32,701 nt of DNA from Candidatus Atribacteria bacterium (GTDB lineage Bacteria; Atribacterota; JALVIU01): NCBI GenBank assembly GCA_027028665.1, contig JALVIU010000206.1:1-32701 (forward strand), in the 5' to 3' direction. Each line of letters begins with the position of its first letter. Position 1 is the first letter of the stretch. The notes below the pieces were generated by a model. The model did not search any database. It was given only the letters and a program-made list of their open reading frames with translations, and was not told the DNA's origin. This document shows positions 1,725-32,701 of this stretch, piece by piece. The position numbers and the translations under genes are program-made.

Positions 1725-1731
1725 TAAATTA

Positions 1732-5648: not shown

Positions 5649-5663
5649 AGGAGAGATGTGAAG

Positions 5664-6611: not shown

Positions 6612-6623
6612 TTTATAGAGAAA

Positions 6624-6640: not shown

Positions 6641-6680
6641 CCTCCTTTAATTAATAAGTCTATCTCCTATTAAGAAACAC

Positions 6681-9757: not shown

Positions 9758-9758
9758 T

Positions 9759-10793: not shown

Positions 10794-10828
10794 AATAAAA
10801 ACCTCCTTTTGTAATTTATTCATCTTTA

Positions 10829-10857
10829 ATTATACTTCTTGTGAAAATCTTTGTCAA
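10829..10857 (-). promoter_or_regulatory. Consensus promoter internal to the SBP tandem, driving copy 1 and the rest of the transporter operon
   Basis: On the minus strand: TTGACA (rc of 10852-10857), 17-nt spacer, TATAAT (rc of 10829-10834). Confidence 0.6.
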
Positions 10858-10891
10858 GGAGGTAACATGCCCTATTCTATTTTTTCTGTTG

Positions 10892-19133: not shown

Positions 19134-19682
19134 ATGAAAGGGGGAAGGAGAGGTATGGATGAAGAAAAAAGAGATGTAGTCGAGCTTCAACTTGTAGTTT
19201 TTAAAATTGGAAGTGAAGAGTACGGTGTAGAGATCTCGGAAGTGCAAGAAATCAATAGAATGATTGAGATTACCAAGATTCCAAGAGCACCTGAGTTTGT
19301 AGAGGGTGTTATAAATCTCCGTGGTAAAGTTATCCCTGTGATTGACTTGAGAAAGAGATTTGGTATGCAGAAAAAAGAATATGATAAAAACTCCAGAATT
19401 ATAGTAGTGGAGATAGATGGCAAACTCGTAGGGATGATAGTAGATGCGGTTACAGAAGTATTAAGGATTACAAGTGATAATATAGAGCCTCCACCTCCTA
19501 TCATTGCAGGTATTGGTTCAGAATATCTAAAAGGTGTAGGAAAGTTAGATAATAGAATGCTTATCCTCCTTGACCTCTCTAAGGTGCTTACAGATGTAGA
19601 AAAGGAACATCTCCTTGAGCTCCAGGAAAGAAAAGATCTGGGAGCAGAAGAGGAGAAACAGGAAGCAGAAGTTACTACATAG
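19134..19682 (+). CDS. cheW: Chemotaxis coupling protein CheW
   Basis: LVVFKIGSEEYGVEISEVQEI, IPRAPEFVEGVINLRGKVIPVIDLRKRFG and IVVEIDGKLVGMIVDAVTEVL are classic CheW-domain motifs. The alternative start at ATG 19155 follows AAGGAG. The C-terminal tail is acidic. Confidence 0.85.
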   Translation: MKGGRRGMDEEKRDVVELQLVVFKIGSEEYGVEISEVQEINRMIEITKIPRAPEFVEGVINLRGKVIPVIDLRKRFGMQKKEYDKNSRIIVVEIDGKLVGMIVDAVTEVLRITSDNIEPPPPIIAGIGSEYLKGVGKLDNRMLILLDLSKVLTDVEKEHLLELQERKDLGAEEEKQEAEVTT

Positions 19683-19720
19683 ACTTAACAAAAACTTTAT
19701 AAGATAGGGTTAGTTTTCAT

Positions 19721-19750
19721 TAACTAAAGGGGCAGATGCCCCTTTAGTTA
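19721..19750. terminator. Bidirectional hairpin between cheW and the convergent DGC-domain gene
   Basis: 13-bp perfect stem: TAACTAAAGGGGC, loop AGAT, GCCCCTTTAGTTA. It overlaps the minus-strand stop codon. Confidence 0.65.
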
Positions 19751-20155
19751 ATTTTTTTCCTTTATTTTATTTATAATCTTATTAGATATTCTTTCTACAT
19801 CTTTTTCGTCAAAATCAAGTGTAGGAACCTTTTCTATACCTTCTTCTGAAACAGTAATTTCATAGTATGGTTTGATCCCTTTATCCTTAACTACCTTTGA
19901 TGCACACTTTAATGGACATCCATTTATTACTATTAATTTTGGAGATTTTTTTGCAATATCTACATGAAGCTTAGAACCCGCAGCAATTGCAGTAATGCAA
20001 CACATCCTTGCAGCCTCTATCTCTTTTGTGAGTTTTACAGCTACCATATGGCCTATTTGCCCTACACTTGATGCCCCATCGCATGCAACTATTATATCTA
20101 AGCGTTCTGCTTCTTTTCCGCAGTTTGGCAAAATTTGCCAGCCATTTTTTGTCAT
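19748..20155 (-). CDS. DGC-domain (putative zinc-binding, Cys-rich) protein
   Basis: 135 aa. The pattern ACDGASSVGQ ... MCCITAIAAG ... INGCPLKCA matches my memory of the Pfam DGC family. GGAGGG SD upstream. Confidence 0.5.
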   Translation of the reverse strand: MTKNGWQILPNCGKEAERLDIIVACDGASSVGQIGHMVAVKLTKEIEAARMCCITAIAAGSKLHVDIAKKSPKLIVINGCPLKCASKVVKDKGIKPYYEITVSEEGIEKVPTLDFDEKDVERISNKIINKIKEKN

Positions 20156-20393: not shown

Positions 20394-21758
20394 ATGGGAT
20401 TTTTAGGTGAAAACTATTTACTTACAAATTCTTATGCCAGGATACTCTTTGATACCATAAAGGATATGCCCATAGTAGATCCTCATAACCATGCAGATAT
20501 AAAGGAGATCGTGGATAATACTCCATGGACAGACATATGGGAGGTAGAGGGGGCTACAGATCATTATGTATGGGAACTTATGAGAAAAAGGGGTATCCCT
20601 GAGGAAAAGATTACAGGGAATGCAACAAATAAAGAAAAATGGATGGCATTATGTGAAGTATTTCCAGAATTTGTCGGAAACCCCGTTTATGAATGGGTAC
20701 ATCTGGATCTAAAACATATATTCGGTATAGATGATGTTATATCTTCTTATACAGCTGAAAAGATCTGGCAGGAGACTTCTCGTATCTTAAAAGAGGACAG
20801 GATGAGACCCCAGAGCCTTTTAAAATTAATGAATGTTGAGATATTATCTACCACAGATGACCCTACAGATGACCTTGCCTATCACGAAAGGGCAAGGGAA
20901 TTAGAGGGAGTACACATTACTCCTACATGGCGCCCAGATAAGGCAATGAACATAGAAAGCAAGGGATGGAGAGAGTATGTAAAGAGATTAGGTGATGCAA
21001 ACGGTAGAGATACCTCTACCTTTGATGGCTTCTTAGAGGCACTTTCTGTAAGCCATCAAAGATTTGCAGAACACGGGTGTGTGGCAAGTGATCATGGCAT
21101 ACTAAGACCCGTTTCTTTTCCTGTGGATAAAAAAGATATAAGTAAAATTTTTGATAAGGCAGTTAGAGGCGAAAAACTTAGCTCCCAGGAAGTTCTTTCT
21201 TTTAAATCTTATATGCTTCTGACGTTTGGAAAAATGAATAAAGAGAGAGGCTGGGTAATGCAGCTTCACATAGGGGCCCTTAGAAACTACCGGGATAGCC
21301 TATATAGAAGTTTGGGCCTTGATTCAGGTGGTGATATATCTACAAATGCATTGGATATAGCAGGAAATCTCCGTTATTTCCTTAATCAGTTTGACGGAGA
21401 GCTTAAAATAGTACTTTATGTACTTGATCCTACACATCTACCTACTATTGCCACTATTGCAAGGGCGTTTCCCAACGTGAGTCTTGGTGCTGCATGGTGG
21501 TATAATGATACACCCTTTGGCATGAAAATACACCTTGAATACATAGCTACCGTAGACCTTTTATATAACTTTGCTGGTATGGTAACAGATTCTCGAAAGC
21601 TCTTGTCTTATGGTTCTCGTACAGAGATGTTCAGGAGGGTGCTCTCCAGTGTGGTAGGGGAGTGGATAGAAAGAGGACAGATACCGCTGAAAGAAGGCAT
21701 GAGACTTGTAGAAGAGGTAAGCTACTATAGACCTCGTAAACTTTTTTACGGAAAATAA
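20394..21758 (+). CDS. uxaC: Glucuronate (uronate) isomerase
   Basis: 454 aa. MPIVDPHNH, GNPVYEWVHLDL, STTDDP, TWRPDKAMNIE, HGCVASDHG, LHIGALRN, GAAWWYND and MVTDSRKLLSY align with E. coli UxaC as I remember it. AAGGAGGGAG SD upstream. Confidence 0.9.
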   Translation: MGFLGENYLLTNSYARILFDTIKDMPIVDPHNHADIKEIVDNTPWTDIWEVEGATDHYVWELMRKRGIPEEKITGNATNKEKWMALCEVFPEFVGNPVYEWVHLDLKHIFGIDDVISSYTAEKIWQETSRILKEDRMRPQSLLKLMNVEILSTTDDPTDDLAYHERARELEGVHITPTWRPDKAMNIESKGWREYVKRLGDANGRDTSTFDGFLEALSVSHQRFAEHGCVASDHGILRPVSFPVDKKDISKIFDKAVRGEKLSSQEVLSFKSYMLLTFGKMNKERGWVMQLHIGALRNYRDSLYRSLGLDSGGDISTNALDIAGNLRYFLNQFDGELKIVLYVLDPTHLPTIATIARAFPNVSLGAAWWYNDTPFGMKIHLEYIATVDLLYNFAGMVTDSRKLLSYGSRTEMFRRVLSSVVGEWIERGQIPLKEGMRLVEEVSYYRPRKLFYGK

Positions 21759-22320: not shown

Positions 22321-24219
22321 CTACTTTATCTCAATAGTGTGTGCAGAAAACCAATCGAGGTCTTTTAGCTCCTTTGGGGTGGTGATATCAGATATATCAT
22401 AGACTACAATACCGTTTTCCCCATCTGCTATCCATAAAATATCCCCATCAATTACTATATTCCATGCATAACCCTTTGTGTCTATTGAGGAGGCCAATGT
22501 AGGAACAGTATATACAGAAGTTATCTTCAGTGCCTTTACACCCCCTTCTCCCAGTGCCAGAAAGAGATAATTACCATCTTTTTTTATCCTTACAATAGGG
22601 GATGTAAACTTCATGGTACCTATAACTTCGATCTTTTTTGGATTTTCAAGAGATATGATCTCTAATGTTCCATTTTTTTCTCCCAGATATATAATATCAT
22701 CTATCTTATAAATTGAGGTAACAGGGGATTTTGTTTTATATCTTCTTAAGACTTTTATACCCTTTTTATCTGTTATATCAATTACAAAAAATCCTGCCTT
22801 ACCATCTGCCATATATATGATATTACCTTCTGGATAAAGGTCGTATAAATTGCCATCTGTAGCATATTTTTTTACAAGTTCTGGAGCAGTTTTATCCTTT
22901 TTCGTACTGTAAAAGAAAAGCCCATAATCCAGTGCGCATACATATATATCATCTTCCTTTTTATACAATCGAAAGGCCCTTGGTGGAATATTTGATATAC
23001 CATCTATTCTATAAGGCTCTCCATCTTCCTTAATACTTAGGGCGCTTAAATACCCCTTTTGTAAAAAATATCCGTATTTTTTATCCTTGTAGAAATCCAC
23101 TGCTCCTTTTAACGTTCTATACCAGTTTATCGGCACCATTTTCTTTTTATCTAAAATGATTAAACCATCTTTTTCATCTACTGCATAGATGAATTTATTA
23201 TCTTTTGTAATTGATATACAGTCTGTATATAGATTGAGGGTTTTCTTTTTGAATATGCGTTCTATATTGTCAATATTTACTATCTCTATGCCATATTTCC
23301 CCATAGAAAGATAAATGTAGTTCATGAGATACACAAGGTCTTCTATGGAATGATTTGCCTTAAATATACCTACCTTTTTTATCTTTGCAGAGACCTCTGT
23401 ACCCTTTTTTGTCTTTTTCTTGTTTATCTGAAGCTCAAAGACCCTTAAGGTAAAGCCATTATCATCTACTGCAAATAGATAATCCTCATACAGTAAGAAA
23501 TATTCTATATTATCCCCTACCTTTTTGCTCTTTATGAGTTTGGGTGTTTCAGGTTCTCTAATATCATATATAGATAGTGTATCCCTCTTTACCACAAATA
23601 AATAGTTGTCTCTTACAGAAAGATGGAAGGAAAAAGGGGCATCTTTTTTTGTTTTAGGTATCAGGACAGTTACTTTTTTGGGGTTTTTGGGCTCTTTTGC
23701 ATTTATAATAACAAGGCCTTCAGAGGATGCAGTATATATATACCTATCCCTTGCTACCACATCATAGAATATATTATTATCATTGTATATACCCATTTTT
23801 GATGGTACCTTTTTATCCCTTAGATCTACAATTAATATACCTGATATGCCGTAAGGTATATACATCCTGTTTCTCTCTATAAATATCTTATGTGGATAGG
23901 AAGAGGGGTAGGGATACTTTTCTATTTGAGGTACAAACCTACTTATAAGCTCTGGATTTTCTGGATCTTTCAGTGAGTATATATAGACCCCGTTTTTATC
24001 CCCTATATATAGATAGTTATCTTCTACGTGTGTTGTAATGATCCCTGTATCTTTTAGAAGGTGTTTTTTTATCTCTAACTTATCTATTTTTTTAAATTTT
24101 ACTATATATAAACCTTCTTTACCACCTATATATAAGTGGTTTTTTATAGGTTTTTCTCCATATGCAATATTACATAATAAGAAAATGGTAAAAATTAAGG
24201 CCAATATGCCCTTTTTCAT
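22321..24219 (-). CDS. Secreted LVIVD-repeat beta-propeller protein
   Basis: 632 aa. Signal peptide MKKGILALIFTIFLLCNIAYG. There are at least 9 degenerate repeats of the type G-hydrophobic-x-I/V-hydrophobic-D/N-hydrophobic-x-D/N-P-x-x-P-K (GILIVDLRDKKVP, GLVIINAKEPKNP, LSIYDIREPETP, GVYIYSLKDPENP, GFFVIDITDKKG, GIVVYDISDITTP). Confidence 0.65.
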   Translation of the reverse strand: MKKGILALIFTIFLLCNIAYGEKPIKNHLYIGGKEGLYIVKFKKIDKLEIKKHLLKDTGIITTHVEDNYLYIGDKNGVYIYSLKDPENPELISRFVPQIEKYPYPSSYPHKIFIERNRMYIPYGISGILIVDLRDKKVPSKMGIYNDNNIFYDVVARDRYIYTASSEGLVIINAKEPKNPKKVTVLIPKTKKDAPFSFHLSVRDNYLFVVKRDTLSIYDIREPETPKLIKSKKVGDNIEYFLLYEDYLFAVDDNGFTLRVFELQINKKKTKKGTEVSAKIKKVGIFKANHSIEDLVYLMNYIYLSMGKYGIEIVNIDNIERIFKKKTLNLYTDCISITKDNKFIYAVDEKDGLIILDKKKMVPINWYRTLKGAVDFYKDKKYGYFLQKGYLSALSIKEDGEPYRIDGISNIPPRAFRLYKKEDDIYVCALDYGLFFYSTKKDKTAPELVKKYATDGNLYDLYPEGNIIYMADGKAGFFVIDITDKKGIKVLRRYKTKSPVTSIYKIDDIIYLGEKNGTLEIISLENPKKIEVIGTMKFTSPIVRIKKDGNYLFLALGEGGVKALKITSVYTVPTLASSIDTKGYAWNIVIDGDILWIADGENGIVVYDISDITTPKELKDLDWFSAHTIEIK

Positions 24220-25001
24220 TTTTTCTCCAGTATAGATGGGATCTCCTTTAATGAAAGAATCATATAGTCTGGCATAAATTCAAATATATCATCTCTCTGC
24301 AGGATCTCTTTTTTCCATGCCTCTTTATAAAATGGAATAAAATCGGGATGAGATACTCTTTCCCATGGGGAAAGTTCCTTTAGACTCTCTGGTACATCAA
24401 ATCTATAGATCCATATAAATTCTGCACCCACCCTCTTTGTTGGTATCATATCAAAATATAGCCAGTCTCCTACATATAGATGTCTTTCTCCTTTTTCCCT
24501 CATAAGGGTTTTTTCAAGGTAGTCTTTTATAGGTTTTCCGTATCCTACCATATCATTTGTATAGATTTCCTTAAAGTACTTATCAAGTCCTCTGCTTTTG
24601 AGTACAGGTATCTGGTAGGCAGTATAGCCATTTGTTATAAGGATCATGGTAAGGTCTTTTCTTTGACTCAAAAGTTCAAGGGTATCTTTTACATCAGGAT
24701 ATACATATACGGCATCTTCATTTTGCACCGCCTTTTTAACCCAATCTGATAGCTTTTCCTTAAATTCTATTTCGTATTTTTCCGCGATCTTTTTTACAAT
24801 GTCGTCCCAATCAAAAGGATATACAAATTTTTTGGATACATTAAGCCTTCTTCTATGTTCTTCTATGATTTCATTTATTATTTCCCTCTCTTCCTTATCT
24901 ACCCCGTTTTCTTTAAAATATTTTACAATCCAGGGAAATATATAGGGTCTAAAAGGTCCACGTACAAGTACACCATCCATATCAAATCCAAGTATTATCA
25001 T
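24216..25001 (-). CDS. HAD-superfamily hydrolase (phosphatase-like) with a large cap insertion
   Basis: Motif I FDMDGVLV directly follows the ATG at 25001, which has an AAGGAG SD 7 nt upstream; the track TTG at 25037 has none. Motif II is ILITNG, motif III GYGKP and motif IV GDWLYFD. Its stop overlaps the LVIVD gene start by 4 nt. Confidence 0.75.
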   Translation of the reverse strand: MIILGFDMDGVLVRGPFRPYIFPWIVKYFKENGVDKEEREIINEIIEEHRRRLNVSKKFVYPFDWDDIVKKIAEKYEIEFKEKLSDWVKKAVQNEDAVYVYPDVKDTLELLSQRKDLTMILITNGYTAYQIPVLKSRGLDKYFKEIYTNDMVGYGKPIKDYLEKTLMREKGERHLYVGDWLYFDMIPTKRVGAEFIWIYRFDVPESLKELSPWERVSHPDFIPFYKEAWKKEILQRDDIFEFMPDYMILSLKEIPSILEKK

Positions 25002-25037
25002 TTGTAAACTCCTTATTTTTATATTAAAGTTGTTCAA

Positions 25038-25066
25038 ATTTTATCATATAAATTCTTCTTTTACAA
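25038..25066 (-). promoter_or_regulatory. Candidate promoter of the HAD/LVIVD operon
   Basis: On the minus strand: TTGTAA (rc of 25061-25066), 17-nt spacer, TAAAAT preceded by TG (rc of 25038-25043). Confidence 0.45.
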
Positions 25067-25312
25067 GTTTACTATAAAGAAGTTGTCTTTTGTTATGTTA
25101 TCTTTTTGGAGGTATAGATTTTTATATTTGCATCTTTATATTTATGATTATTCCAGCAAAATTTGTATTTTATAATAAAAACTATAAAAAAACCAAAAAA
25201 ATAAAGATTGGCAAAGATATGTTTTTCTTAAGATATTAAGGCAATCCTTATTCCTTATTATACATAAATAGGTTATAAGAAAAAATAATTATTTAACAAT
25301 TGATTTGCAATA

Positions 25313-25342
25313 TTGACAAGAAGAGTGATTAAAGGTTATAAT
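25313..25342 (+). promoter_or_regulatory. Promoter of the DUF917-ABC operon
   Basis: TTGACA (25313-25318), 18-nt spacer, TATAAT (25337-25342). It gives a roughly 35-nt leader with a GGGAGATGG SD before the ATG at 25382. Confidence 0.55.
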
Positions 25343-25381
25343 TATTTACAATAACGTTAACCTAATCTGGGAGATGGATAT

Positions 25382-26428
25382 ATGAAGAGGAAGATCGATC
25401 CTTATTTTGCCAGGACTCTTGTGTATGGTGGCGCGGTGCTTGGTGGAGGAGGCGGGGGAAATATCGAAGAAGGCCTGGAATTTATAGATGAGCTCTCCAG
25501 GTATAAAAATCCGCTTCTTTTATCTCCAGATGAGATAGATGATGGATATATAGTAACTGTTGCGATGGTAGGTGCTCCTTCTTCAAAAAAGAAGCTTTCC
25601 TCATCTATTATTATCTCTTCATTTGAATTCTTTAGAGAAAATTTCAAACAAGAAATATCAGGTATTATTACAAATGAAATGGGTCCATTTGCCTCTGTAA
25701 ATGGGCTCTTACAATCTGCCTTCACCCTGGTTCCAATTATTGATGCACCTGCAAATGGGAGGGCTCATCCCCTTTCTGCTATGGGAGCCATGGGCTTGAG
25801 CAAGTTAAAGAACTATGTATCTTATCAGTCAGGTGTAAGTGATCTCCTCAAAGTCTATGTAGAAGGAGATATAAACACCACCTCTCAACTTATGCGGAGT
25901 GCCTCTGTGGTTTCAGGGGGTATTATATCTATTACAAGAAACCCGGTAGATATTGGATATCTAAGGGAAAATGGTGCAGTAGGGGCTATAGATTTTACCC
26001 ATAAACTTGGAGATATCTGGCTAAGCAGGAAAGAGCCCATGGAGAAGATAGATGGGTGTATATCTTTCCTAAAAGGTAATAATCTGGGCAGGTTCTCTAT
26101 AGATAATGTAACCTTATCTCAGGAGGGTGGTTTTGATATAGGAAGAGTAACCTTTGGAGATTTTGAGCTTATCTTCTGGAATGAATACATGACCCTTGAG
26201 AAAAAGGGAATACGAATAGCTACATTTCCCGATCTTATTGTACTCTTTGATCCTTTGACAGGGCTTCCTCTTTCATCCTATGAACTCACAAAGGGACAGG
26301 AGATTGTGGCTTCATATACAAGCTATAAAAACATTATTCTTGGAAGTGGCATGAGGGATAAAACCCTTTTTGAATATACAGAAAAGGTCATAGGTAAGGA
26401 TCTTATAAGATACCTTGACCTATTTTAA
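25382..26428 (+). CDS. DUF917-like protein (function unknown)
   Basis: 348 aa. The glycine run VLGGGGGGN near the N-terminus and IIDAPANGRAHPLSAMG resemble the DUF917 signatures (GTGGGG ... DAD-x-GRA-x-PE) as I remember them. The assignment is tentative. Confidence 0.45.
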   Translation: MKRKIDPYFARTLVYGGAVLGGGGGGNIEEGLEFIDELSRYKNPLLLSPDEIDDGYIVTVAMVGAPSSKKKLSSSIIISSFEFFRENFKQEISGIITNEMGPFASVNGLLQSAFTLVPIIDAPANGRAHPLSAMGAMGLSKLKNYVSYQSGVSDLLKVYVEGDINTTSQLMRSASVVSGGIISITRNPVDIGYLRENGAVGAIDFTHKLGDIWLSRKEPMEKIDGCISFLKGNNLGRFSIDNVTLSQEGGFDIGRVTFGDFELIFWNEYMTLEKKGIRIATFPDLIVLFDPLTGLPLSSYELTKGQEIVASYTSYKNIILGSGMRDKTLFEYTEKVIGKDLIRYLDLF

Positions 26429-26446
26429 AGAAGGAGGTGTAGGTTT

Positions 26447-28033
26447 ATGAAGAAGTTTTTGGTATTCTCTTTGGTATTAACACTTGTTTTGACCTCATTT
26501 GCACTTGTAGGATATGCAAAAGAGGTGGTATTTAAATATGCAACAGGGCAGGAAACTATGTGTTTTGATCCAGCACTTCATAGAGATGAGACACAGTCTG
26601 CAAATGTCTTCAACCTTTATGATCCACTGTTTTATCCTGTAAGAGGTGGGGCACCTATTCCATGGCTTGTAGAGTCTTATAAGGTCTCAGATGATGGAAA
26701 AGTCTATACCTTCAAACTGAAAAAAGGTGTAAAATTTCATGATGGAACAGAGATGACAGCAGAAGATGTTGCATTTTCTATGTTGAGAATGATAAAAATC
26801 AATCAGGGATTTTCCTGGCTATGGAAGGGTATAGTGGATCCAGAGAAGATAGAAGTATTGGATAAATACACGGTAAAGTTTGTATTGAACAAACCTTATG
26901 GTCCATTCATTGCAACACTTGTACAGTTTCATGTGGTAAATAAGGATCTACTTATGAAGAATAAAAAACCTGGTGATTGGGGTGAATACGGAGACTTTGG
27001 TATGGCATATCTCCAGGACCATGATGCAGGCTCAGGTCCATTTACCCTTGAGAAGGTACAACTTGGTGATAGGCTCACATTGAAGAAGTTTGATGGGTAT
27101 TTCAAGGGCTTTAAGGAAAATTCCCCTGATGTGGTGAACTGGCTTGTAGTTCCAGAGAAAGCTACATATGTAGCTATGCTCAAAAAGGGAGAAGTTGATA
27201 TGATAGATCAATGGCTCTCTCCTGAGAACTTTAAAGACCTTGCAAAAACAAAGGGTGTTGTGGTTCAGGAAGATCCAAATGTGCAACTCTTCTTCCTCCA
27301 GATGAACAATAAAAAGAAACCCCTTGATGATGTAAATGTAAGAAAAGCAATATCTTATGCATTTGATTATAAAGTGGCAGTAAATGATATATTTAAAGGT
27401 GGAAAACAGGCAGAAGGTCCTGTTCCTATCCTTATGCCAGGACATGCAAAAGATGTGACAGTTTATCATAAAGATCTCAAAAAGGCAAAAGAATACCTTG
27501 CAAAATCCAAGTATTCCAAAGCCGAACTTAAAAACATGGAACTTACATATGTATATGTAAATTCTCTTGATCTTGAGAGAAAAATAGGTCTTTTGCTTGC
27601 CAATGATCTTGCACAAATTGGTCTGAAGGTTAAGATAAAAGGTGAAACATGGTCAAGAATTACCCAGCTTGCAAAATCTCCTGATACTACACCACACTTT
27701 ACGGCTATATTCCATACTGCAAAATATCCATCCCCAGATAGCCATACATATCTTATGTACAATAAACATGCATGGGGTACCTATATTTCTATGAGTTGGT
27801 ATGATAATCCAAAGGTAGATGAACTTACCGAAAAGGCGAGACAGACCATTGATGTAAATGAGAGATATAAATTATATGAAGAAGTCCAGAGAATAGTAAC
27901 AGCTGATGCAGCATCTCTGTATATTGTAAACCCACTTCATAGGATCGCATTTAGAGATTGGGTAAAGGACTATAATTATGTAGGAATCCTTGGATACGAT
28001 CTTGAATTTGATCATTTGAAGATAGAAAAATAG
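26447..28033 (+). CDS. ABC transporter substrate-binding protein, family 5 (DppA/OppA/NikA-type)
   Basis: 528 aa. SPI signal MKKFLVFSLVLTLVLTSFALVGYA. Size and motifs (FKLKKGVKFHDGTEMTAEDVAFS, GSGPFTLEK, LVVPEKATYVAMLKKGEVD) are typical of SBP_bac_5. AAGGAGG SD upstream. Confidence 0.85.
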   Translation: MKKFLVFSLVLTLVLTSFALVGYAKEVVFKYATGQETMCFDPALHRDETQSANVFNLYDPLFYPVRGGAPIPWLVESYKVSDDGKVYTFKLKKGVKFHDGTEMTAEDVAFSMLRMIKINQGFSWLWKGIVDPEKIEVLDKYTVKFVLNKPYGPFIATLVQFHVVNKDLLMKNKKPGDWGEYGDFGMAYLQDHDAGSGPFTLEKVQLGDRLTLKKFDGYFKGFKENSPDVVNWLVVPEKATYVAMLKKGEVDMIDQWLSPENFKDLAKTKGVVVQEDPNVQLFFLQMNNKKKPLDDVNVRKAISYAFDYKVAVNDIFKGGKQAEGPVPILMPGHAKDVTVYHKDLKKAKEYLAKSKYSKAELKNMELTYVYVNSLDLERKIGLLLANDLAQIGLKVKIKGETWSRITQLAKSPDTTPHFTAIFHTAKYPSPDSHTYLMYNKHAWGTYISMSWYDNPKVDELTEKARQTIDVNERYKLYEEVQRIVTADAASLYIVNPLHRIAFRDWVKDYNYVGILGYDLEFDHLKIEK

Positions 28034-28036
28034 GAA

Positions 28037-28067
28037 ATAAATAAGGGGGGCTTCCCCCCTTATTTAT
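28037..28067 (+). terminator. Intra-operon hairpin after the SBP gene (partial terminator or mRNA stabiliser)
   Basis: 14-bp stem: ATAAATAAGGGGGG, loop CTT, CCCCCCTTATTTAT. It lies between the SBP stop (28033) and the permease start (28070). Confidence 0.45.
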
Positions 28068-28069
28068 AA

Positions 28070-29074
28070 ATGATTATGAACATAAAAAGTAGATTAATTC
28101 AGATAATATTTACACTTTTTGGACTTTCTGTGCTTATCTTCTTTCTTGCCCGTGTTATGCCTGGAGATCCTGCAAGATTGGCATTGGGACCTGAGGCTAC
28201 ACAGGAACAGGTTGAGGATCTGCGGCATAAGTTGGGACTTGACAAGCCACTTCCATATCAATATTGGGAGTTTCTGAAGGGACTTGCCCATGGAAAGATG
28301 GGGATCTCTCTTATTACAAAGAGAGATGTTTCAAAAGATATAAAAGATAGGCTCCCTGCAACCCTTGAGCTTATAATATTTGCGATGACATTCTCTGTCA
28401 TTGTAGGTGTACCTCTTGGAATCGTGGCTGCCTTAAAAAAAGATAAGTTTTTGGACAATTTTACAAGGGTATTTGCTTTTTCTGGGGTATCTTTTCCAAG
28501 ATTTTGGATAGGTATAATGTTTCAATTGATCTTTGCATATGCCTTATCGCTTTTACCCCTTACAGGAAGAATATCTGGTGACCCCCCTACCCATATTACG
28601 GGTTTTTATGTATTGGATAGCCTGCTTACTCTTAACTTTTCTGCCCTCTGGGATGCACTTTTACACCTTGCCTTACCTGTACTTACTTTGTCTTTGTCAC
28701 CTATTGCACAGATTACAAGGCTTATAAGGGCAAATATGGTGGAGCAGATGAGAAAGGACTATACTCTTGCTTTAAGGGTAAATGGTTTACCTGAAAATCT
28801 CAATATATATAAATACATGTTGAAAAATGCCTTTACATCAACCCTTACAATTATCGGTCTTTTATTTGGCTGGCTTTTAGGAAATGCATTTGTAGTGGAG
28901 ACTGTATTTGCATGGCCTGGTATGGCAAGATATGGTATAAATTCTGTTATTAGAAAGGATTTTAACGCAGTTGTAGGGGTTACTCTTGTGGTAGGGATTA
29001 CTTATGTTATTATAAATCTTATAGTCGATATATTATACAGATATCTTGATCCAAGGATAGGGCTTGAAAAATGA
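28070..29074 (+). CDS. Dpp/Opp-type ABC permease (DppB/OppB-like)
   Basis: 334 aa. The N-terminus RLIQIIFTLFGLSVLIFFLARVMPGDPA is typical of this family. Six hydrophobic segments. Confidence 0.85.
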   Translation: MIMNIKSRLIQIIFTLFGLSVLIFFLARVMPGDPARLALGPEATQEQVEDLRHKLGLDKPLPYQYWEFLKGLAHGKMGISLITKRDVSKDIKDRLPATLELIIFAMTFSVIVGVPLGIVAALKKDKFLDNFTRVFAFSGVSFPRFWIGIMFQLIFAYALSLLPLTGRISGDPPTHITGFYVLDSLLTLNFSALWDALLHLALPVLTLSLSPIAQITRLIRANMVEQMRKDYTLALRVNGLPENLNIYKYMLKNAFTSTLTIIGLLFGWLLGNAFVVETVFAWPGMARYGINSVIRKDFNAVVGVTLVVGITYVIINLIVDILYRYLDPRIGLEK

Positions 29075-29931
29075 AGAAATTTAAAGAGAGTTCTCTATAT
29101 CTTCCCTTATATAGGTTTTTTCAAAATAGACTATCGGTGGTGGGTGCAATTATCATAATAGTGGTGGTACTTATTTCTATATTTGCTCCTTATCTTGCGC
29201 CATATCCAGAGGATGCAGGGGGGGCAATTCATTTCTCTGATACATTTCAACCTCCAAGTAGAAAACACCTTCTTGGCACAGATGATGTAGGAAGAGATGT
29301 GTTATCAAGAATACTTATAGGATCACGTATATCACTTCTTTTAGGGGTGGTGGTTCTAACTATTGCCGTGCTTATTGGCATCCCACTGGGACTTATTGCA
29401 GGATATTTTGGAGGACTTACAGAGAAGATCATAATGCGTACCACAGATATATTTCTCTCTATTCCCCCTCTGGTTCTGGCCCTTGCTGTAAGTGCTGCCT
29501 TTGAACCAAATTTGAGAAATAGTATGATAGCTATAGCTTTTTCCTGGTGGCCCTGGTATACAAGGCTTGCATATGGTGAAACACTTTCCATAAAGGAAGA
29601 GGATTTTATAGAGGTGGCAGAATCCTTAGGTGCAAGTAAGTGGTACATAATATTTAGAGAGATCTTGCCAAATATGACATCTACCCTTGTTGTGAAGATA
29701 AGTCTTGATTTTGGTTATGCGATCCTGACAGGTGCAGCACTGGGATTTTTGGGTCTCGGTGCACAGCCTCCTACGCCTGAGTGGGGTACAATGGTGAGTC
29801 TGGGCAGAGAATACTTACCAAATGTATGGTGGATCTCTACATTCTCCGGTCTTGCCATATTCATTACAGTTCTCGGATTTAATCTCCTGGGTGATGGTCT
29901 AAGAGACTTTTTCGATGTTGAGGTAAACTGA
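29071..29931 (+). CDS. Dpp/Opp-type ABC permease (DppC/OppC-like)
   Basis: 286 aa. HLLGTDDVGRDVLSRILIGSRISL is the OppC/DppC signature. A 4-nt overlap joins it to the preceding gene. Confidence 0.85.
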   Translation: MKKFKESSLYLPLYRFFQNRLSVVGAIIIIVVVLISIFAPYLAPYPEDAGGAIHFSDTFQPPSRKHLLGTDDVGRDVLSRILIGSRISLLLGVVVLTIAVLIGIPLGLIAGYFGGLTEKIIMRTTDIFLSIPPLVLALAVSAAFEPNLRNSMIAIAFSWWPWYTRLAYGETLSIKEEDFIEVAESLGASKWYIIFREILPNMTSTLVVKISLDFGYAILTGAALGFLGLGAQPPTPEWGTMVSLGREYLPNVWWISTFSGLAIFITVLGFNLLGDGLRDFFDVEVN

Positions 29932-30929
29932 TGGATGCATTGTTAAAGGTAGAAGATCTCCATGTAAATTTTAAAACACCTTTTGGTATGGCAAAGGTAC
30001 TAAACGGTGTCTCTTTATACATAAAGCCCCAGGAGATCGTCTCTCTGGTGGGAGAGACAGGATGTGGAAAAAGTATTACTGCAAAATCTATCCTTGATGT
30101 TCTTCCTGAAACCTCAATAATCTCTGGTAAAATATCTTTAAAAGATAAGGATTTCCTTTCTATAGGGAAAAAAGAGAGAAGAACCCTTATAAGGTCACGA
30201 ATAGGATATATACCACAAAATCCTATGACCTCGTTAAATCCTGTATTTACTATAGGGGAGGTATTTTTTGACCTTATAAAATGGCATGGGAAAGAGATTG
30301 TACCTTGGAGGGCATATAGGAAATGGAAGAGGCATATAAAAGAAGAGAGAGATATTGCTATAGAACTTTTGAAAAAAGTGCATCTTCCACAGCCAGAAGA
30401 TGTGCTTAGTAAGTATCCTACTCAGCTTTCAGGGGGTATGAGGCAGAGGGTTCTTATCGCTATGTCTATGATAGGTAATAGAGAGTTTCTCATTGCTGAT
30501 GAGCCTACTACAGCCCTTGATGTAACAATTCAGAAGGGGATTGTAGAGCTTATAAAAGAAAAAGTAGAAGAAGAGAGATTATCGGTACTGTATATAACAC
30601 ATAATCTGGGAGTAGCAAAATACTTAAGTAATAGGATATATGTAATGTATGCAGGAGATATTGTGGAGTTTGGGCCATCTGAATCCCTTCTTAGAAATCC
30701 TCTTCATCCATATACGCAGGGTCTTCTAAATTCCATTCCAAAACTTGTAAAAACAGGTTTTTCTGGTATTCCTGGAAGGCTTCCATCATATATTACACCT
30801 CCTGAAGGTTGTAGATTTTCACCAAGATGTCCAAAGAGTATGGAGATATGTAATAATATAAAACCTCCCCTTAAGGAGGTGGAGGAAGGTCATTTTGTAA
30901 GGTGTCATTTATATGGAAAAGATAATTGA
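29931..30929 (+). CDS. Dpp/Opp-type ABC ATP-binding protein (DppD/OppD-like)
   Basis: Walker A GETGCGKS, signature LSGGMRQRVLIA, Walker B LIADEPTTALD. The C-terminal oligopeptide-ABC domain has 4 Cys. The start overlaps the previous stop (TGATG). Confidence 0.9.
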   Translation: MDALLKVEDLHVNFKTPFGMAKVLNGVSLYIKPQEIVSLVGETGCGKSITAKSILDVLPETSIISGKISLKDKDFLSIGKKERRTLIRSRIGYIPQNPMTSLNPVFTIGEVFFDLIKWHGKEIVPWRAYRKWKRHIKEERDIAIELLKKVHLPQPEDVLSKYPTQLSGGMRQRVLIAMSMIGNREFLIADEPTTALDVTIQKGIVELIKEKVEEERLSVLYITHNLGVAKYLSNRIYVMYAGDIVEFGPSESLLRNPLHPYTQGLLNSIPKLVKTGFSGIPGRLPSYITPPEGCRFSPRCPKSMEICNNIKPPLKEVEEGHFVRCHLYGKDN

Positions 30930-31866
30930 GGTAAAGGCATTATCAAAACATTTTAAAACTAAAAAGGGTCTTACAGTTAAGGCTGTAGATGAGGTGGATT
31001 TTTTTCTGGAAAAAGGTAAGACCCTTGCAATAGTGGGTGAGTCAGGTTCAGGAAAGACTACCCTTGGAAAAACCTTGCTTAAGATATATGAACCCACTGG
31101 AGGAAGGATATATTTCGAAGGTAAGGATATAACAAATTATTCTAAGGATAAGATGAAAGAATTAAGGGCAAATCTCCAGATGGTATTTCAAGACCCTACA
31201 TCTTCCTTAAATCCAAGAAAGAGTATAGGGAATATTATATCTTTACCCCTTAAAATCCATACAAGGATGACAAAAAAAGAGATAAAAGAAAAGGTGATAT
31301 GGCTTTTAGAACAGGTAGACCTTTCGCCTGCCTTTTATTCTCGTTATCCAAATGCCCTATCTGGAGGACAAAAACAGAGGGTAGGTATTGCTCGAGCGCT
31401 TGCCCTTAACCCAAAACTTATCGTTCTTGATGAGCCCACAGCATCTTTGGATGTCTCTGTCCAGGCAAAAATTTTAACTCTTTTGGAAGAGTTAAAAAAT
31501 CGCTTTGGCTTAAGTTACATATATATAACCCACGACCTTGGAGTTGTGAGAAATATGGCAGATTTTACACTTGTTATGTATCTCGGAAGGGTTATGGAAT
31601 ATGCATCTACAGAGGAGCTTTTTAGAAATCCTCTTCACCCTTATACTGTAGCCCTATTATCTTCTATACCTACTATAATGGATGAAGAGAAAAGTACTAT
31701 CCCTTATGAAATTACTCTATCAGGCGATATCCCATCCCTTACAGAGATTCCAGATTATTGTAGATTTTATTCCAGGTGTTATAAAAAAGAAAAGGAATGT
31801 ATGGAGAAAGAACCCGAATTAAGAGAGATGCTCTCAGGTCATTGGGTAAGATGCATAAGAGTTTAA
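30913..31866 (+). CDS. Dpp/Opp-type ABC ATP-binding protein (DppF/OppF-like)
   Basis: Walker A GESGSGKTT, signature LSGGQKQRVGIARAL, Walker B LDEPTASLD. The C-terminal domain has 4 Cys. A 17-nt overlap joins it to the preceding gene. Confidence 0.9.
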   Translation: MEKIIEVKALSKHFKTKKGLTVKAVDEVDFFLEKGKTLAIVGESGSGKTTLGKTLLKIYEPTGGRIYFEGKDITNYSKDKMKELRANLQMVFQDPTSSLNPRKSIGNIISLPLKIHTRMTKKEIKEKVIWLLEQVDLSPAFYSRYPNALSGGQKQRVGIARALALNPKLIVLDEPTASLDVSVQAKILTLLEELKNRFGLSYIYITHDLGVVRNMADFTLVMYLGRVMEYASTEELFRNPLHPYTVALLSSIPTIMDEEKSTIPYEITLSGDIPSLTEIPDYCRFYSRCYKKEKECMEKEPELREMLSGHWVRCIRV

Positions 31867-31878
31867 AGGAGGAGTAAT

Positions 31879-32701
31879 ATGAAATTTGATTGGGAAGTCA
31901 AAAGTGCTGCTTTTAAAGTAATAAATGATATGTGCAATCTCAAAAAGGGTGAGCATTTACTCATATATGCAGATACAAAAGTAGATCAAGATGTGCTCTC
32001 TGCAATAGCTGAGGCAGGACATGTAGCAGGGGGAGAAGTAGGTGTATACCTTTACAGGACAAGGGAAGAGGTGGGTATGGAGCCTCCTCCGCCTTTGAGA
32101 GAGGCAATGAAGGCATCAGATGTCATAATAGAGCTTGCAGAAAAATACCTCATACATACAAAAGCATATCATGATGCGTTGGATAATGGTTCGAGAAATC
32201 TCTGTCTTACAGGGATGGATAAGGATATGCTTACGAGGTGTATTGGGGATATAAACTATAAAGCAATGGTGGAATTTGGGGATAAACTTATGGAGATCCT
32301 GTCCAGAGGAAATAAGATGGAGATCACAACACCAGCCGGGACACATCTTGTATCAGAGATAGGCGGGAGGCCATTTTACCATAACTCAGGTATCATAGAT
32401 AGCCCTGGCCAGCAGAGTTTTTTAGGTGGACAAATATCATGGGCACCTATTGAAGAGACGATAAATGGAACAATGGTGTTTGATGGTTCTGTTTGGCCCC
32501 CTGATGAATTGGGACTCTTAAAAGAACCTATAGTTATGAAAATAGAGAAAGGTAGAGTAGTTGAAATAGAGGGCGGAAAAGAGGCCATGATATTTAAAAA
32601 ATGGCTTGCAAGTTTTAATGATCCCAATATGTTTATGATTGCCCATTTTTCATACGGTTTTAACCCTGGTGCAAGGCTCACAGGTAAGATATTGGAAGAT
32701 G
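31879..32701 (+). CDS. M29-aminopeptidase-like / NicX (2,5-dihydroxypyridine dioxygenase)-like family protein, N-terminal 274 codons; continues beyond the right edge
   Basis: Open frame from ATG 31879 (AAGGAGGAG SD) to the window end. It is absent from the ORF track because it is unterminated. MKIEKGRVVEIEGGKEAMIFKKWLASFNDPNMFMIAHFSYGFNPGARL parallels the NicX segment IEKG-I-GI-GG-EA ... FNDPEVYGISHIGWGLQPRA as I remember it. Confidence 0.6.
   Translation, partial: MKFDWEVKSAAFKVINDMCNLKKGEHLLIYADTKVDQDVLSAIAEAGHVAGGEVGVYLYRTREEVGMEPPPPLREAMKASDVIIELAEKYLIHTKAYHDALDNGSRNLCLTGMDKDMLTRCIGDINYKAMVEFGDKLMEILSRGNKMEITTPAGTHLVSEIGGRPFYHNSGIIDSPGQQSFLGGQISWAPIEETINGTMVFDGSVWPPDELGLLKEPIVMKIEKGRVVEIEGGKEAMIFKKWLASFNDPNMFMIAHFSYGFNPGARLTGKILED

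What the first reader, a model, noticed from the sequence alone, without database searches (positions are those of the whole stretch)
25382..32701. DUF917-like gene leading a Dpp/Opp-type ABC operon that ends in a NicX/M29-like gene
One promoter (25313-25342) appears to drive seven genes or more: a DUF917-like protein of unknown function, a family-5 binding protein, two permeases, two ATPases, and a protein of the M29-aminopeptidase / NicX ring-cleaving dioxygenase family that runs off the window.

No peptidase of a standard family, glycoside hydrolase or regulator is present. Established knowledge: family-5 Opp/Dpp transporters in thermophiles often import non-peptide substrates such as oligosaccharides or nickel. 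DUF917 is usually found beside hydantoinase/oxoprolinase-type enzymes.

Placing an uncharacterised enzyme first and a metal-dependent M29/NicX-like enzyme last around a transporter suggests an uptake-plus-catabolism locus. The substrate could be an unidentified peptide-like or N-heterocyclic compound.
Basis: inference. Interest (0 to 1): 0.65.

Follow-up and report, generated by a model that had tools for sequence, protein, structure and literature searches.

The report
Peptide-derivative uptake operon with four orphan enzymes
A tightly packed bacterial operon couples a dipeptide-type importer to four poorly understood enzymes, a gene set that recurs across many anaerobic and heat-loving bacteria and archaea and probably breaks down an unusual, possibly cyclic, peptide-derived compound.

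Summary
Seven co-directional genes start at 25382 behind a perfect sigma-70 promoter. They are a DUF917 (now S-Me-THD-like) protein, a family-5 binding protein, two permeases, two ATPases and a NicX-like protein that starts at 31879.

An identical 110-kb public scaffold shows the operon continues with DUF1177 and AroM, giving nine genes. It does not end at the NicX-like gene.

In 34 species-level loci with full flanks around NicX-like homologues:
- 30 have a peptide transporter (Opp ABC or OPT).
- 28 have an AroM or hydantoin-racemase-like gene.
- 13 have DUF917 plus DUF1177.
- 7 have cyclodipeptide oxidase genes, including the closest relative found (Aerophobetes).

Enzyme features:
- The NicX-like protein keeps three of four NicX iron ligands but loses Ser302 and two substrate-binding residues. 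Many hosts, such as Thermococcus and Sporomusa, are known strict anaerobes, so a dioxygenase role is unlikely.
- The DUF1177 model has an M17/M28 aminopeptidase-like fold.
- AroM has two invariant cysteines.
- The binding protein is closest to DppA but lacks DppA's two peptide-terminus anchors.

Best reading: import, stereo-inversion and hydrolysis of a non-canonical, probably cyclic, peptide derivative of diketopiperazine or hydantoin type. The substrate is inferred, not shown, and no paper found characterises this module.

The parts
25313..25342 (+). Sigma-70-type promoter, TTGACA-18 nt-TATAAT, 40 nt upstream of the g1 start codon
   Evidence: It is a 12/12 consensus match and the only perfect one in 24900-32701. 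The -35 TTGACA sits at the same position in relative L091. Function is inferred, not shown.
25333..25363 (.). Imperfect inverted repeat (AGGTTATAATTATT / AATAACGTTAACCT) overlapping the -10 box; a candidate operator
   Evidence: The arms are 14 nt, 79% complementary, with a 3-nt spacer. It is not visibly conserved in L091, so the status is weak.
25382..26428 (+). g1: DUF917 / S-Me-THD-like protein, 348 aa
   Evidence: PF06032 scores 64.2 bits and PF20906 54 bits. NCBIfam thiohydantoin and S-methyl-thiohydantoin desulfurase models score 183 and 209 bits, below their cut-offs of 440 and 450. A family profile hits PDB 2o3i at E=1e-15. The AF2 model has pLDDT 91, and Foldseek finds only 2o3i, at TM 0.74.
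26447..28033 (+). g2: family-5 solute-binding protein, 528 aa, with a signal peptide and no lipobox cysteine
   Evidence: SBP_bac_5 scores 279 bits. The closest solved structure is E. coli DppA at E=1e-44. DppA Asp408 aligns to Lys, which is invariant in 10 module-linked orthologues. DppA Arg355 aligns to Val, Ile, Ser, Ala or Pro. No NCBIfam equivalog cut-off is reached.
28037..28067 (+). Intercistronic 14-bp GC-cored hairpin between the binding-protein gene and the first permease gene
   Evidence: Free energy is -21.2 kcal/mol, z = -3.75, and 0 of 200 shuffles fold as well. A hairpin of different sequence lies at the same position in L091. The likely role is mRNA stabilisation or partial termination that raises binding-protein expression; this is inference.
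28070..29074 (+). g3: OppB/DppB-type permease, 334 aa
   Evidence: BPD_transp_1 plus BPD_transp_1_N. The best NCBIfam model is Opp2B at 281 bits, below its cut-off of 350.
29071..29931 (+). g4: OppC/DppC-type permease, 286 aa; overlaps g3 by 4 nt
   Evidence: BPD_transp_1 plus OppC_N. The best NCBIfam models are the D,D-dipeptide permease at 302 bits (cut-off 434) and Opp2C at 292 bits (cut-off 300).
29931..30929 (+). g5: OppD/DppD-type ATPase, 332 aa
   Evidence: ABC_tran plus oligo_HPY.
30913..31866 (+). g6: OppF/DppF-type ATPase, 317 aa; overlaps g5 by 17 nt
   Evidence: ABC_tran plus oligo_HPY.
31879..32701 (+). g7: NicX-like (M29-superfamily) metalloenzyme. The first 274 of 338 codons lie in the window. 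On the identical scaffold L001 it is followed by g8 (DUF1177, 301 aa, L001:11985-12890) and g9 (AroM, 221 aa, L001:12887-13552). These correspond to window-frame positions 32897-33802 and 33799-34464, beyond the window end.
   Evidence: - Homology: PDB NicX 7cn3 matches at E=3e-15 and E=2e-27 with a profile. PF26233 is on record.
- Conserved residues: H93, H256, R276, H302 and D304 correspond to NicX H105, H265, R293, H318 and D320.
- Lost residues: NicX S302 aligns to Gly, E177 to Asn, and H189 falls in a gap.
- Downstream genes: DUF1177 scores 424 bits and AroM 228 bits.
- Scaffold identity: L001 matches the window with 0 mismatches over 11,789 nt.

Best explanation
This is a nine-gene operon for uptake and breakdown of a small, non-canonical peptide derivative.

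Proposed steps:
1. A DppA-like periplasmic binding protein (g2) captures a dipeptide-sized ligand that lacks the usual free peptide termini.
2. The ABC transporter (g3-g6) imports it.
3. In the cytoplasm, AroM, a two-cysteine racemase-like enzyme, inverts a stereocentre.
4. Three hydrolase-like enzymes then open and cleave the molecule to amino acids. They are the DUF917/S-Me-THD-like protein, the NicX/M29-like metalloenzyme and DUF1177, which has an aminopeptidase-like fold.

The favoured substrate class is a cyclic amide derived from amino acids or peptides. A 2,5-diketopiperazine (cyclic dipeptide) is most likely, and a 5-substituted hydantoin-type ring is the alternative.

What is shown: gene identities, operon architecture, the cross-phylum linkage of these genes, and the conserved residues.
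What is inferred: the direction of the pathway, the order of the steps, and the substrate.
For: Operon integrity:
- Gaps between genes are -17 to +36 nt.
- The same nine-gene order occurs in a relative (83% NicX-like identity) with entirely different flanking genes.

Linkage across 80 species-level loci around NicX-like homologues. Among the 34 with at least 8 kb on both sides:
- 30 have a peptide transporter: 23 Opp ABC and 7 OPT.
- 28 have AroM or a hydantoin-racemase-like gene.
- 13 have DUF917 plus DUF1177.
- 7 have CDO genes.
- Only 1 has none of these.

The same enzyme set occurs with other transporters:
- OPT in Pyrococcus horikoshii, a Thermoanaerobacteraceae MAG and Brevibacillus borstelensis.
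- An NCS1 permease plus Hydantoinase_A in Alicyclobacillus.
- The racemase-like neighbour in P. horikoshii is PDB 2EQ5, deposited as 'hypothetical hydantoin racemase'.

Link to cyclic dipeptides:
- In the closest relative found (Aerophobetes; permeases 72-73% and NicX-like 68% identical), the orthologous transporter is followed by AroM, the NicX-like gene, CDOA (PF00881) and CDOB (PF19585).
- CDOs are known to act on cyclic dipeptides.
- Non-CDPS CDO clusters were reported as enriched in DUF917, AroM, hydantoin racemases, Opp and OPT transporters and peptidases (PMC11055893).

Enzyme features:
- AroM has two invariant Cys (C96, C186) in 28 homologues.
- The DUF1177 model (pLDDT 82, pTM 0.87) matches M17 and M28 aminopeptidases at E about 1e-9.
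- The NicX-like protein keeps a His/His/Asp metal site. Its paralogue in homologous clusters passes the Pfam M29 threshold.

Binding protein:
- Closest to DppA.
- A conserved Lys replaces the alpha-amino-binding Asp408, and there is no Arg at the position of Arg355.
Against: - No component has been assayed and no ligand is known.
- CDO genes are absent from this operon and its 20-kb surroundings. They occur in only 12 of the 80 loci.
- The DUF1177 fold match is moderate (TM about 0.5), and its conserved loops are modelled with low confidence.
- The DppA residue mapping rests on an alignment with few identical residues, and the Arg355 region is poorly aligned.
- Opp-family systems also carry nickel, opines and sugars. 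The permeases score closest to nickel-type Opp2 models.
- The characterised DUF917 relatives remove sulfur from thiohydantoins rather than open rings.
Confidence: 0.55

Rival explanations
1. The substrate is a linear peptide containing D-amino acids, for example a heat-racemised peptide or a cell-wall-derived peptide. AroM epimerises a residue, and the peptidase-like enzymes cleave L-D or D-L bonds that standard peptidases cannot.
For: - One or two racemase-like genes accompany the NicX-like gene in 28 of 34 loci.
- g4's best NCBIfam model is the D,D-dipeptide permease, at 302 bits against a cut-off of 434.
- The transporters are peptide transporters, Opp or OPT.
- Two or three aminopeptidase-like enzymes are present.
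Against: - It does not explain the DUF917-like enzyme, the CDO association or the NCS1/Hydantoinase_A variant.
- The binding protein lacks the DppA residue that binds a free alpha-amino group.
Confidence: 0.15
2. This is ordinary nutritional uptake of di- and oligopeptides, with general aminopeptidases that happen to be encoded alongside.
For: - The binding protein is closest to DppA.
- Annotation pipelines name g7 homologues 'aminopeptidase' or 'aminopeptidase T'.
- The DUF1177 model is aminopeptidase-like.
Against: - A plain peptide system has no evident need for the racemase-like and DUF917-like genes that are conserved across phyla.
- DppA's terminus-binding Asp408 and Arg355 are not conserved.
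- No NCBIfam equivalog threshold is met for DppA or OppA.
Confidence: 0.15
3. The cluster makes or modifies a peptide-based secondary metabolite, as was suggested for CDO clusters that lack a CDPS, rather than breaking a compound down.
For: PMC11055893 raises this possibility for clusters enriched in DUF917, AroM and racemases.
Against: - Binding-protein-dependent ABC systems and OPT transporters are importers (established knowledge).
- No synthetase, CDPS, NRPS or ligase is present in the operon.
- Peptidase-like folds dominate the enzyme set.
Confidence: 0.07
4. The transporter imports nickel or a metallophore (NikA/Opp2-like), and the flanking enzymes are functionally unrelated or process a chelator.
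For: - The top NCBIfam hits are nickel-type: nikA at 151 bits, Opp2B at 281 of 350, and Opp2C at 292 of 300.
- Both OPT and Opp families include metal-chelate importers (established knowledge).
Against: - All these scores are below their cut-offs.
- The enzyme set stays linked while the transporter type changes between Opp, OPT and NCS1. That pattern points to a shared organic substrate.
- No nickel enzyme or nickel regulator lies in the operon.
Confidence: 0.05
5. g7 is a true NicX-type Fe(II) dioxygenase that cleaves a hydroxypyridine-like N-heterocycle after import.
For: - The only match in the PDB is NicX.
- NicX His265, His318, Asp320, Arg293 and His105 are conserved.
Against: - The essential ligand Ser302 aligns to an invariant Gly. 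The S302A mutant of NicX is inactive (PMC7910607).
- Substrate-binding Glu177 and His189 are not conserved.
- Many homologues come from taxa known as strict anaerobes, such as Thermococcus, Pyrococcus, Bathyarchaeia, Thermoanaerobacterales and Sporomusa.
- No other nic-pathway genes were found nearby.
Confidence: 0.03

Closest known systems
Non-CDPS cyclodipeptide-oxidase (CDO) gene clusters described by Andreas et al. 2024 (Nat Commun 15:3574, PMC11055893)
   Same: The accessory gene repertoire matches: DUF917, AroM or hydantoin racemase, Opp ABC or OPT transporters, and peptidases. Homologous loci, including the closest relative found, carry CDOA and CDOB directly after the NicX-like gene.
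   Different: This operon and its 20-kb surroundings have no CDOA or CDOB. DUF1177 is not mentioned in that paper's main text (0 occurrences). The function of those clusters is itself unknown.
E. coli Dpp dipeptide ABC importer (DppABCDF)
   Same: It has the same five-component architecture. The binding protein is the closest solved relative (E=1e-44). The ATPases carry the oligo_HPY C-terminal domain.
   Different: The DppA equivalog score is 139 bits against a cut-off of 1005. Asp408 aligns to Lys, and Arg355 is not conserved in the module-linked orthologues. Four enzyme genes are embedded in the operon.
NicX, the 2,5-dihydroxypyridine 5,6-dioxygenase of Pseudomonas putida (PDB 7CN3)
   Same: The fold family is the same (PF26233). 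His265, His318, Asp320, Arg293 and His105 are conserved.
   Different: Ser302 aligns to Gly, Glu177 to Asn, and His189 falls in a gap. g7 has an extra invariant Glu-Asp-Glu-Arg motif. Many hosts belong to anaerobic taxa. The genomic context is peptide transport and racemases rather than the nic cluster.
Classical hydantoin-utilisation (hyu) clusters: permease, hydantoin racemase, hydantoinase and N-carbamoylase
   Same: The logic is the same: a transporter, a two-Cys racemase-type enzyme, a ring-acting enzyme and metallo-amidohydrolase-like enzymes. Homologous clusters carry a hydantoin-racemase-like protein (2EQ5), and in Alicyclobacillus an NCS1 permease plus Hydantoinase_A.
   Different: No dihydropyrimidinase-type hydantoinase, HyuA/HyuB, or M20 or nitrilase-type carbamoylase is present in this operon. 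The transporter here is Opp-type rather than NCS1.
Thiohydantoin and S-methyl-thiohydantoin desulfurases (NCBIfam NF058529 and NF058532), the named members of the DUF917 family
   Same: The two-domain architecture is the same, with full-length alignment to both models.
   Different: Scores of 183 and 209 bits fall far below the equivalog cut-offs of 440 and 450. No companion genes of an ergothioneine-type pathway (recalled from memory as the context of those enzymes) were seen nearby.

Membership tests
DUF917 / S-Me-THD-like family (PF06032 + PF20906) | Both Pfam domains score above the gathering threshold | tested here: met
   64.2 and 54.0 bits against a threshold of 27.
DUF917 / S-Me-THD-like family (PF06032 + PF20906) | Fold of the family's solved member, PDB 2O3I | tested here: met
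   A family profile hits 2o3i at E=1e-15. The AF2 model matches 2o3i at TM 0.74 and nothing else at E<=0.001.
S-methyl thiohydantoin desulfurase / thiohydantoin desulfurase (NCBIfam equivalogs) | Score above the curated equivalog cut-off | tested here: not met
   209 bits against 450, and 183 bits against 440.
Opp/Dpp (PepT-type) ABC importer | A family-5 binding protein, two BPD_transp_1 permeases with OppB-N and OppC-N domains, and two ATPases with the oligo_HPY domain | tested here: met
   All five components are present and adjacent.
DppA dipeptide-binding protein | Equivalog score, and the residues that anchor the dipeptide termini (Asp408 and Arg355 of E. coli DppA; residue roles from memory of the DppA structure literature) | tested here: not met
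   139 bits against a cut-off of 1005. Asp408 aligns to Lys, which is invariant in 10 orthologues. Arg355 aligns to Val, Ile, Ser, Ala or Pro. The alignment is weak around Arg355.
NikA-type nickel-binding protein | Equivalog score | tested here: not met
   151.5 bits against 393 for TIGR02294, and 135 bits against 600 for Opp5A_nikA.
NicX family (PF26233) | Sequence homology to NicX | tested here: met
   PF26233 is on record for the full-length protein. PDB 7cn3 matches at E=3e-15 and E=2e-27. The local Pfam copy gave no PF26233 hit for g7 or for its homologues on record as PF26233, so it could not be used to re-test the domain.
NicX 2,5-dihydroxypyridine dioxygenase (function) | The four Fe(II) ligands: His265, Ser302, His318 and Asp320 | tested here: not met
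   His265, His318 and Asp320 are conserved as H256, H302 and D304. Ser302 aligns to the invariant Gly284.
NicX 2,5-dihydroxypyridine dioxygenase (function) | The substrate hydrogen-bond network: His105, Glu177 and His189 | tested here: not met
   His105 is kept as H93. Glu177 aligns to Asn169, and His189 falls in a gap.
Peptidase M29 (PF02073) | A Pfam hit above the gathering threshold | tested here: not met
   g7 has no hit at E<=1. The A1 profile hits no M29 peptidase in the PDB. However, the paralogue in homologous clusters scores 54 and 47 bits against a threshold of 27, and it is 33% identical to g7 (E=1.5e-39).
AroM family (PF07302), Asp/Glu/hydantoin-racemase-like | A Pfam hit, plus two catalytic-type cysteines about 90 residues apart | tested here: met
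   228 bits. C96 and C186 are invariant in 28 homologues. Racemase activity itself was not tested.
DUF1177 (PF06675) | A Pfam hit | tested here: met
   424 bits. It is 63-68% identical to homologues in Pyrococcus, Thermococcus and Tepidanaerobacter.
CDO-containing cluster (CDOA PF00881 + CDOB PF19585) | Presence of both CDO subunits | tested here: not met
   Neither subunit is in the window or in L001. They are present in homologous loci L007, L054, L065, L079 and L082.
Classical hyu hydantoin-utilisation cluster | A hydantoinase (amidohydrolase or HyuA/B type) and an N-carbamoylase | tested here: not met
   Neither family was detected among the nine gene products.

The most novel reading that the evidence does not exclude
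The anaerobic NicX-like enzymes may be the long-sought hydrolases that open 2,5-diketopiperazine (cyclic dipeptide) rings.

- NicX's substrate, 2,5-dihydroxypyridine (5-hydroxy-2-pyridone), is a six-membered lactam that is nearly the same shape as a 2,5-diketopiperazine.
- On this view the dioxygenase NicX would be a late aerobic offshoot of an ancient family of metal-dependent cyclic-dipeptide hydrolases.
- AroM and the hydantoin-racemase-like proteins would epimerise cyclic dipeptides.
- DUF917, DUF1177 and the M29-type paralogue would finish the breakdown.
- The whole module would be a widespread pathway in thermophilic and anaerobic peptide fermenters for salvaging cyclic dipeptides that form spontaneously from peptides in the heat.

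The shape similarity and the heat-driven formation of cyclic dipeptides are chemical reasoning and general knowledge, not tool results.
Probability: 0.25. Interest if true: 0.8.

Novelty: new variant of a known kind. Interest (0 to 1): 0.6.

Why it matters
Four protein families lack a biochemically defined role in this context: DUF1177, AroM, the non-dioxygenase branch of NicX/M29, and this branch of DUF917.

- At least 7,990 DUF1177 homologues were found, and the family is 63-68% identical between this bacterium and Pyrococcus.
- Here these families form one transporter-linked module, conserved from Bacillota to Thermococcales and Thermoproteota.
- That gives a concrete, testable handle on all four at once.
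- If the substrate is a cyclic dipeptide, the module would supply genes for diketopiperazine degradation. A 2013 study stated that little is known about that process (PMC3852281).
- It would also explain the many CDO clusters that lack a cyclodipeptide synthase (PMC11055893).
- It would place the origin of the unusual dioxygenase NicX among anaerobic hydrolases.

Tried and rejected
- **Riboswitch or leader RNA.** An Rfam scan of 24900-32701 at E<=0.1 gave only a sub-threshold sraA hit on the intercistronic hairpin (33.6 bits against 56). It was rejected as a match to the hairpin alone.
- **Literature.** Searches for DUF1177, DUF917, PF06032, thiohydantoin desulfurase, the AroM family and diketopiperazine hydrolases found no functional study of this module.
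- **Solved structures by sequence.** DUF1177 and AroM gave nothing significant. g1 alone gave nothing, but its family profile found 2o3i.
- **Fold search for g1.** It gave no informative fold beyond 2o3i, so no mechanistic lead came from structure.
- **Source organism.** Cluster look-ups returned no names. The best species-level relative is Candidatus Aerophobetes, at 68-73% identity. The phylum of the window remains unresolved.
- **Candidate operator.** The inverted repeat over the -10 box is not conserved in L091 and is not relied on.
- **Dioxygenase reading of g7.** Considered and rejected on the ligand and substrate residues and on host physiology.
- **Nickel-uptake reading.** Considered. 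It is not excluded but is disfavoured, because the transporter type changes while the enzymes stay.
- **Extra paralogues in the window.** No second NicX-type paralogue, CDO subunit or hydantoin-racemase-like gene was found.

Full report
**1. Observation**

The region holds seven co-directional ORFs at the coordinates given.

| Gene | Coordinates | Identity | Evidence |
|---|---|---|---|
| g1 | 25382-26428 | DUF917, now called S-Me-THD-like | PF06032 64 bits, PF20906 54 bits, threshold 27 |
| g2 | 26447-28033 | family-5 binding protein | SBP_bac_5, 279 bits |
| g3 | 28070-29074 | permease | BPD_transp_1 with OppB N-terminal domain |
| g4 | 29071-29931 | permease | BPD_transp_1 with OppC N-terminal domain |
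| g5 | 29931-30929 | ATPase | ABC_tran plus oligo_HPY |
| g6 | 30913-31866 | ATPase | ABC_tran plus oligo_HPY |
| g7 | 31879 to window end | NicX-like | PDB 7cn3, E=3e-15 |

- Gaps between genes range from a 17-nt overlap to 36 nt.
- The promoter at 25313-25342 is a perfect TTGACA-18-TATAAT, the only 12/12 match in the region.
- Its -35 box is conserved in a relative.
- No Rfam element lies in the leader.

**2. Extension beyond the window**

The g6 protein was found on public contigs. One of them, a 110-kb metagenome scaffold (L001), matches the window with no mismatch over 11,789 nt.

- On that scaffold g7 is 338 aa, with PF26233 (NicX) on record.
- One nucleotide downstream lies DUF1177 (301 aa, 424 bits).
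- AroM follows, overlapping DUF1177 by 4 nt (221 aa, 228 bits).
- Convergent genes come next, so the operon has nine genes.
- A related genome (NicX-like 83% identical) has the same nine genes in the same order between unrelated flanking genes. This argues that the block is a unit.
- A strong hairpin follows the binding-protein gene at 28037-28067 (-21.2 kcal/mol, z = -3.75).
- The relative has a hairpin of different sequence at the same place. This looks like the differential-expression element often seen in ABC operons (general knowledge).

**3. Comparative genomics**

A profile of NicX-like homologues retrieved 80 species-level loci from GTDB genomes. I searched them with the nine operon proteins, plus OPT, hydantoin-racemase-like, CDOA, CDOB, M20 and PucR proteins taken from related loci.

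Among the 34 loci with at least 8 kb on both sides:

| Feature within 10 kb | Loci |
|---|---|
| Peptide transporter (23 Opp ABC, 7 OPT) | 30 |
| AroM or hydantoin-racemase-like gene | 28 |
| DUF917 plus DUF1177 | 13 |
| Two or more NicX-type paralogues | 13 |
| Cyclodipeptide-oxidase genes | 7 |
| None of these | 1 |

The taxa include Bacillota, Anaerolineae, Armatimonadota, Aerophobetes, Desulfurococcales, Sulfolobales, Caldarchaeales, Nitrososphaeria, Bathyarchaeia and Thermococcus.

Annotated examples:
- *Pyrococcus horikoshii*: hydantoin-racemase-like (identical to PDB 2EQ5), DUF917, DUF1177, AroM, NicX/M29, OPT, NicX, AsnC.
- *Tepidanaerobacter syntrophicus*: DUF917, racemase, DUF1177, NicX/M29, AroM.
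- A Thermoanaerobacteraceae MAG: PucR, NicX, OPT, racemase, DUF917, DUF1177, AroM, CDOA, CDOB, M20.
- *Brevibacillus borstelensis*: OPT, DUF917, DUF1177, AroM, NicX/M29, racemase, IclR.
- *Alicyclobacillus acidiphilus*: PucR, NCS1 permease, DUF917, Hydantoinase_A, DUF917, DUF917, DUF1177, NicX/M29.

In most loci DUF917 and DUF1177 are adjacent. In this window the transporter and g7 separate them.

The closest relative found is an Aerophobetes MAG (permeases 72-73% and NicX-like 68% identical). Its operon ends AroM, NicX-like, CDOA (PF00881), CDOB (PF19585).

**4. The individual proteins**

*g1.* It belongs to the DUF917 family by sequence, profile and fold. It scores 209 and 183 bits against the two named NCBIfam equivalogs, whose cut-offs are 450 and 440. 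Its specific reaction is therefore unknown.

*g7.* By alignment to NicX, read against the NicX structure paper (PMC7910607):
- Kept: His265, His318, Asp320, Arg293 and His105.
- Lost: the essential ligand Ser302 aligns to an invariant Gly, Glu177 aligns to Asn, and His189 falls in a gap.
- Gained: an invariant Glu-Asp-Glu-Arg motif.
- g7 does not hit Pfam M29. It is 33% identical to the paralogue found in homologous clusters, and that paralogue passes the M29 threshold.
- Homologues come from taxa that are known strict anaerobes, such as Thermococcus, Pyrococcus, Sporomusa, Thermoanaerobacterales and Bathyarchaeia. I therefore read g7 as a metal-dependent hydrolase, not a dioxygenase. This is inference.

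*DUF1177.*
- It has no sequence relative in the PDB.
- Its AlphaFold model (pLDDT 82, pTM 0.87) matches the catalytic domain of M17 leucyl aminopeptidases and the M28 *Streptomyces griseus* aminopeptidase (E about 1e-9, TM about 0.5).
- Many His, Asp, Glu and Cys residues are invariant.
- Several low-confidence loops in the model coincide with invariant motifs.

*AroM.* It keeps two invariant cysteines, C96 and C186, in 28 homologues. This is the hallmark of two-base racemases of the Asp/Glu/hydantoin-racemase type (established knowledge).

*g2.*
- The binding protein is closest to *E. coli* DppA among solved structures.
- The position of DppA Asp408 is Lys here. That Lys is invariant in 10 orthologues (47-56% identical) from bacteria and archaea that also carry module genes.
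- The position of Arg355 is not basic.
- No NCBIfam equivalog threshold is reached for DppA, OppA, NikA, GsiB or CntA.

**5. Interpretation**

Shown:
- A nine-gene operon in which an importer and four enzyme families are co-inherited across domains of life.
- The transporter type can change between Opp, OPT and NCS1 while the enzymes stay.

Inferred:
- The enzymes act on the imported compound.
- The compound is small and related to peptides or amino acids.
- A stereocentre must be inverted.
- Several non-standard amide bonds must be hydrolysed.

Several observations point to a cyclic amide, either a 2,5-diketopiperazine or a hydantoin-type ring:
- The recurrent link with cyclodipeptide oxidase.
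- The link with hydantoin-racemase-like proteins.
- The NCS1/Hydantoinase_A variant in Alicyclobacillus.
- The loss of the terminus-binding residues in the binding protein.

Andreas et al. (PMC11055893) had already noted that CDO clusters without a CDPS are enriched in DUF917, AroM, hydantoin racemases, Opp and OPT transporters and peptidases. They left the function open. Their main text does not mention DUF1177 (0 occurrences).

I put 0.55 on the general mechanism. Within it, I put about 0.25-0.3 on diketopiperazines specifically.

**6. Rivals**

- D-residue-containing linear peptides: 0.15.
- Ordinary peptide uptake: 0.15.
- Secondary-metabolite tailoring: 0.07.
- Nickel or metallophore uptake: 0.05.
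- True NicX-type dioxygenase chemistry: 0.03.

The evidence for and against each is given in the rival entries.

**7. Novelty and verdict**

The kind of system, a substrate-specific importer with its catabolic enzymes, is well known. This enzyme module is uncharacterised in the literature I could search.

It is a new variant of a known kind. It is of moderate to high interest because it makes four orphan families testable together. It may also bear on diketopiperazine degradation, about which a 2013 study said little is known (PMC3852281).

Its interpretation is supported, with the corrections listed above.

Noticed in passing
window 1696-6611 (+): A cluster of AllH-like (PF11392), CoA-ligase-like AllF-type, AllG (PF06545) and an amino-acid (carbamate-type) kinase, preceded by an alpha/beta hydrolase at 901-1665. 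It looks like an oxamate carbamoyltransferase plus carbamate kinase set, as in anaerobic ureide or purine catabolism.
   Followed up: no
window 15218-18936 (-) and 20394-21758 (+): A LarA-like protein (Lar_N plus LarA_C), a BadF/BcrAD-type ATPase and an FGGY sugar kinase lie in a row, near glucuronate isomerase UxaC. This may be a nickel-pincer racemase or epimerase in a sugar-acid pathway.
   Followed up: no
window 6681-11926 (-): An ABC importer with two tandem paralogous binding proteins (354 and 344 aa, SBP_bac_8/6/1), one 671-aa fused double permease and a TOBE-domain ATPase.
   Followed up: no
window 28037-28067; L091 6155-6185: An intercistronic hairpin after the binding-protein gene is conserved in position, but not in sequence, between the window and a relative. 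A sub-threshold Rfam sraA hit (33.6 bits against 56) falls on it.
   Followed up: partly
window 25333-25363: A 14-nt-arm inverted repeat overlaps the -10 box and is a possible operator. No regulator gene lies in or next to the operon, and the repeat is not conserved in L091.
   Followed up: partly
L093 (Alicyclobacillus acidiphilus) 2658-11079: Three DUF917 paralogues surround a Hydantoinase_A gene, with an NCS1 permease upstream and DUF1177 plus NicX/M29 downstream. This variant joins the 'DUF917 beside hydantoinase' context to the DUF1177/NicX context.
   Followed up: no
L007 6165-8231 (-): In the Aerophobetes locus, an aldehyde:ferredoxin oxidoreductase with a C-terminal ThiS-like domain lies convergent to the CDOA/CDOB genes.
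   Followed up: no
window 22321-24219 (-), 24216-25037 (-), 19134-20155: A 632-aa LVIVD-repeat beta-propeller protein and a HAD hydrolase are divergent from the operon. An orphan CheW gene (19134-19682, +) and a DGC-domain gene (19748-20155, -) lie further upstream. The ORF at 174-737 (-) has no Pfam match.
   Followed up: no
DUF1177 model (protein P0121; L001 11985-12890): The five stretches with pLDDT below 50 (residues 76-82, 125-132, 162-165, 211-218, 247-252) coincide with runs of invariant residues. These are probably active-site loops that need a metal, a ligand or a partner to become ordered.
   Followed up: no
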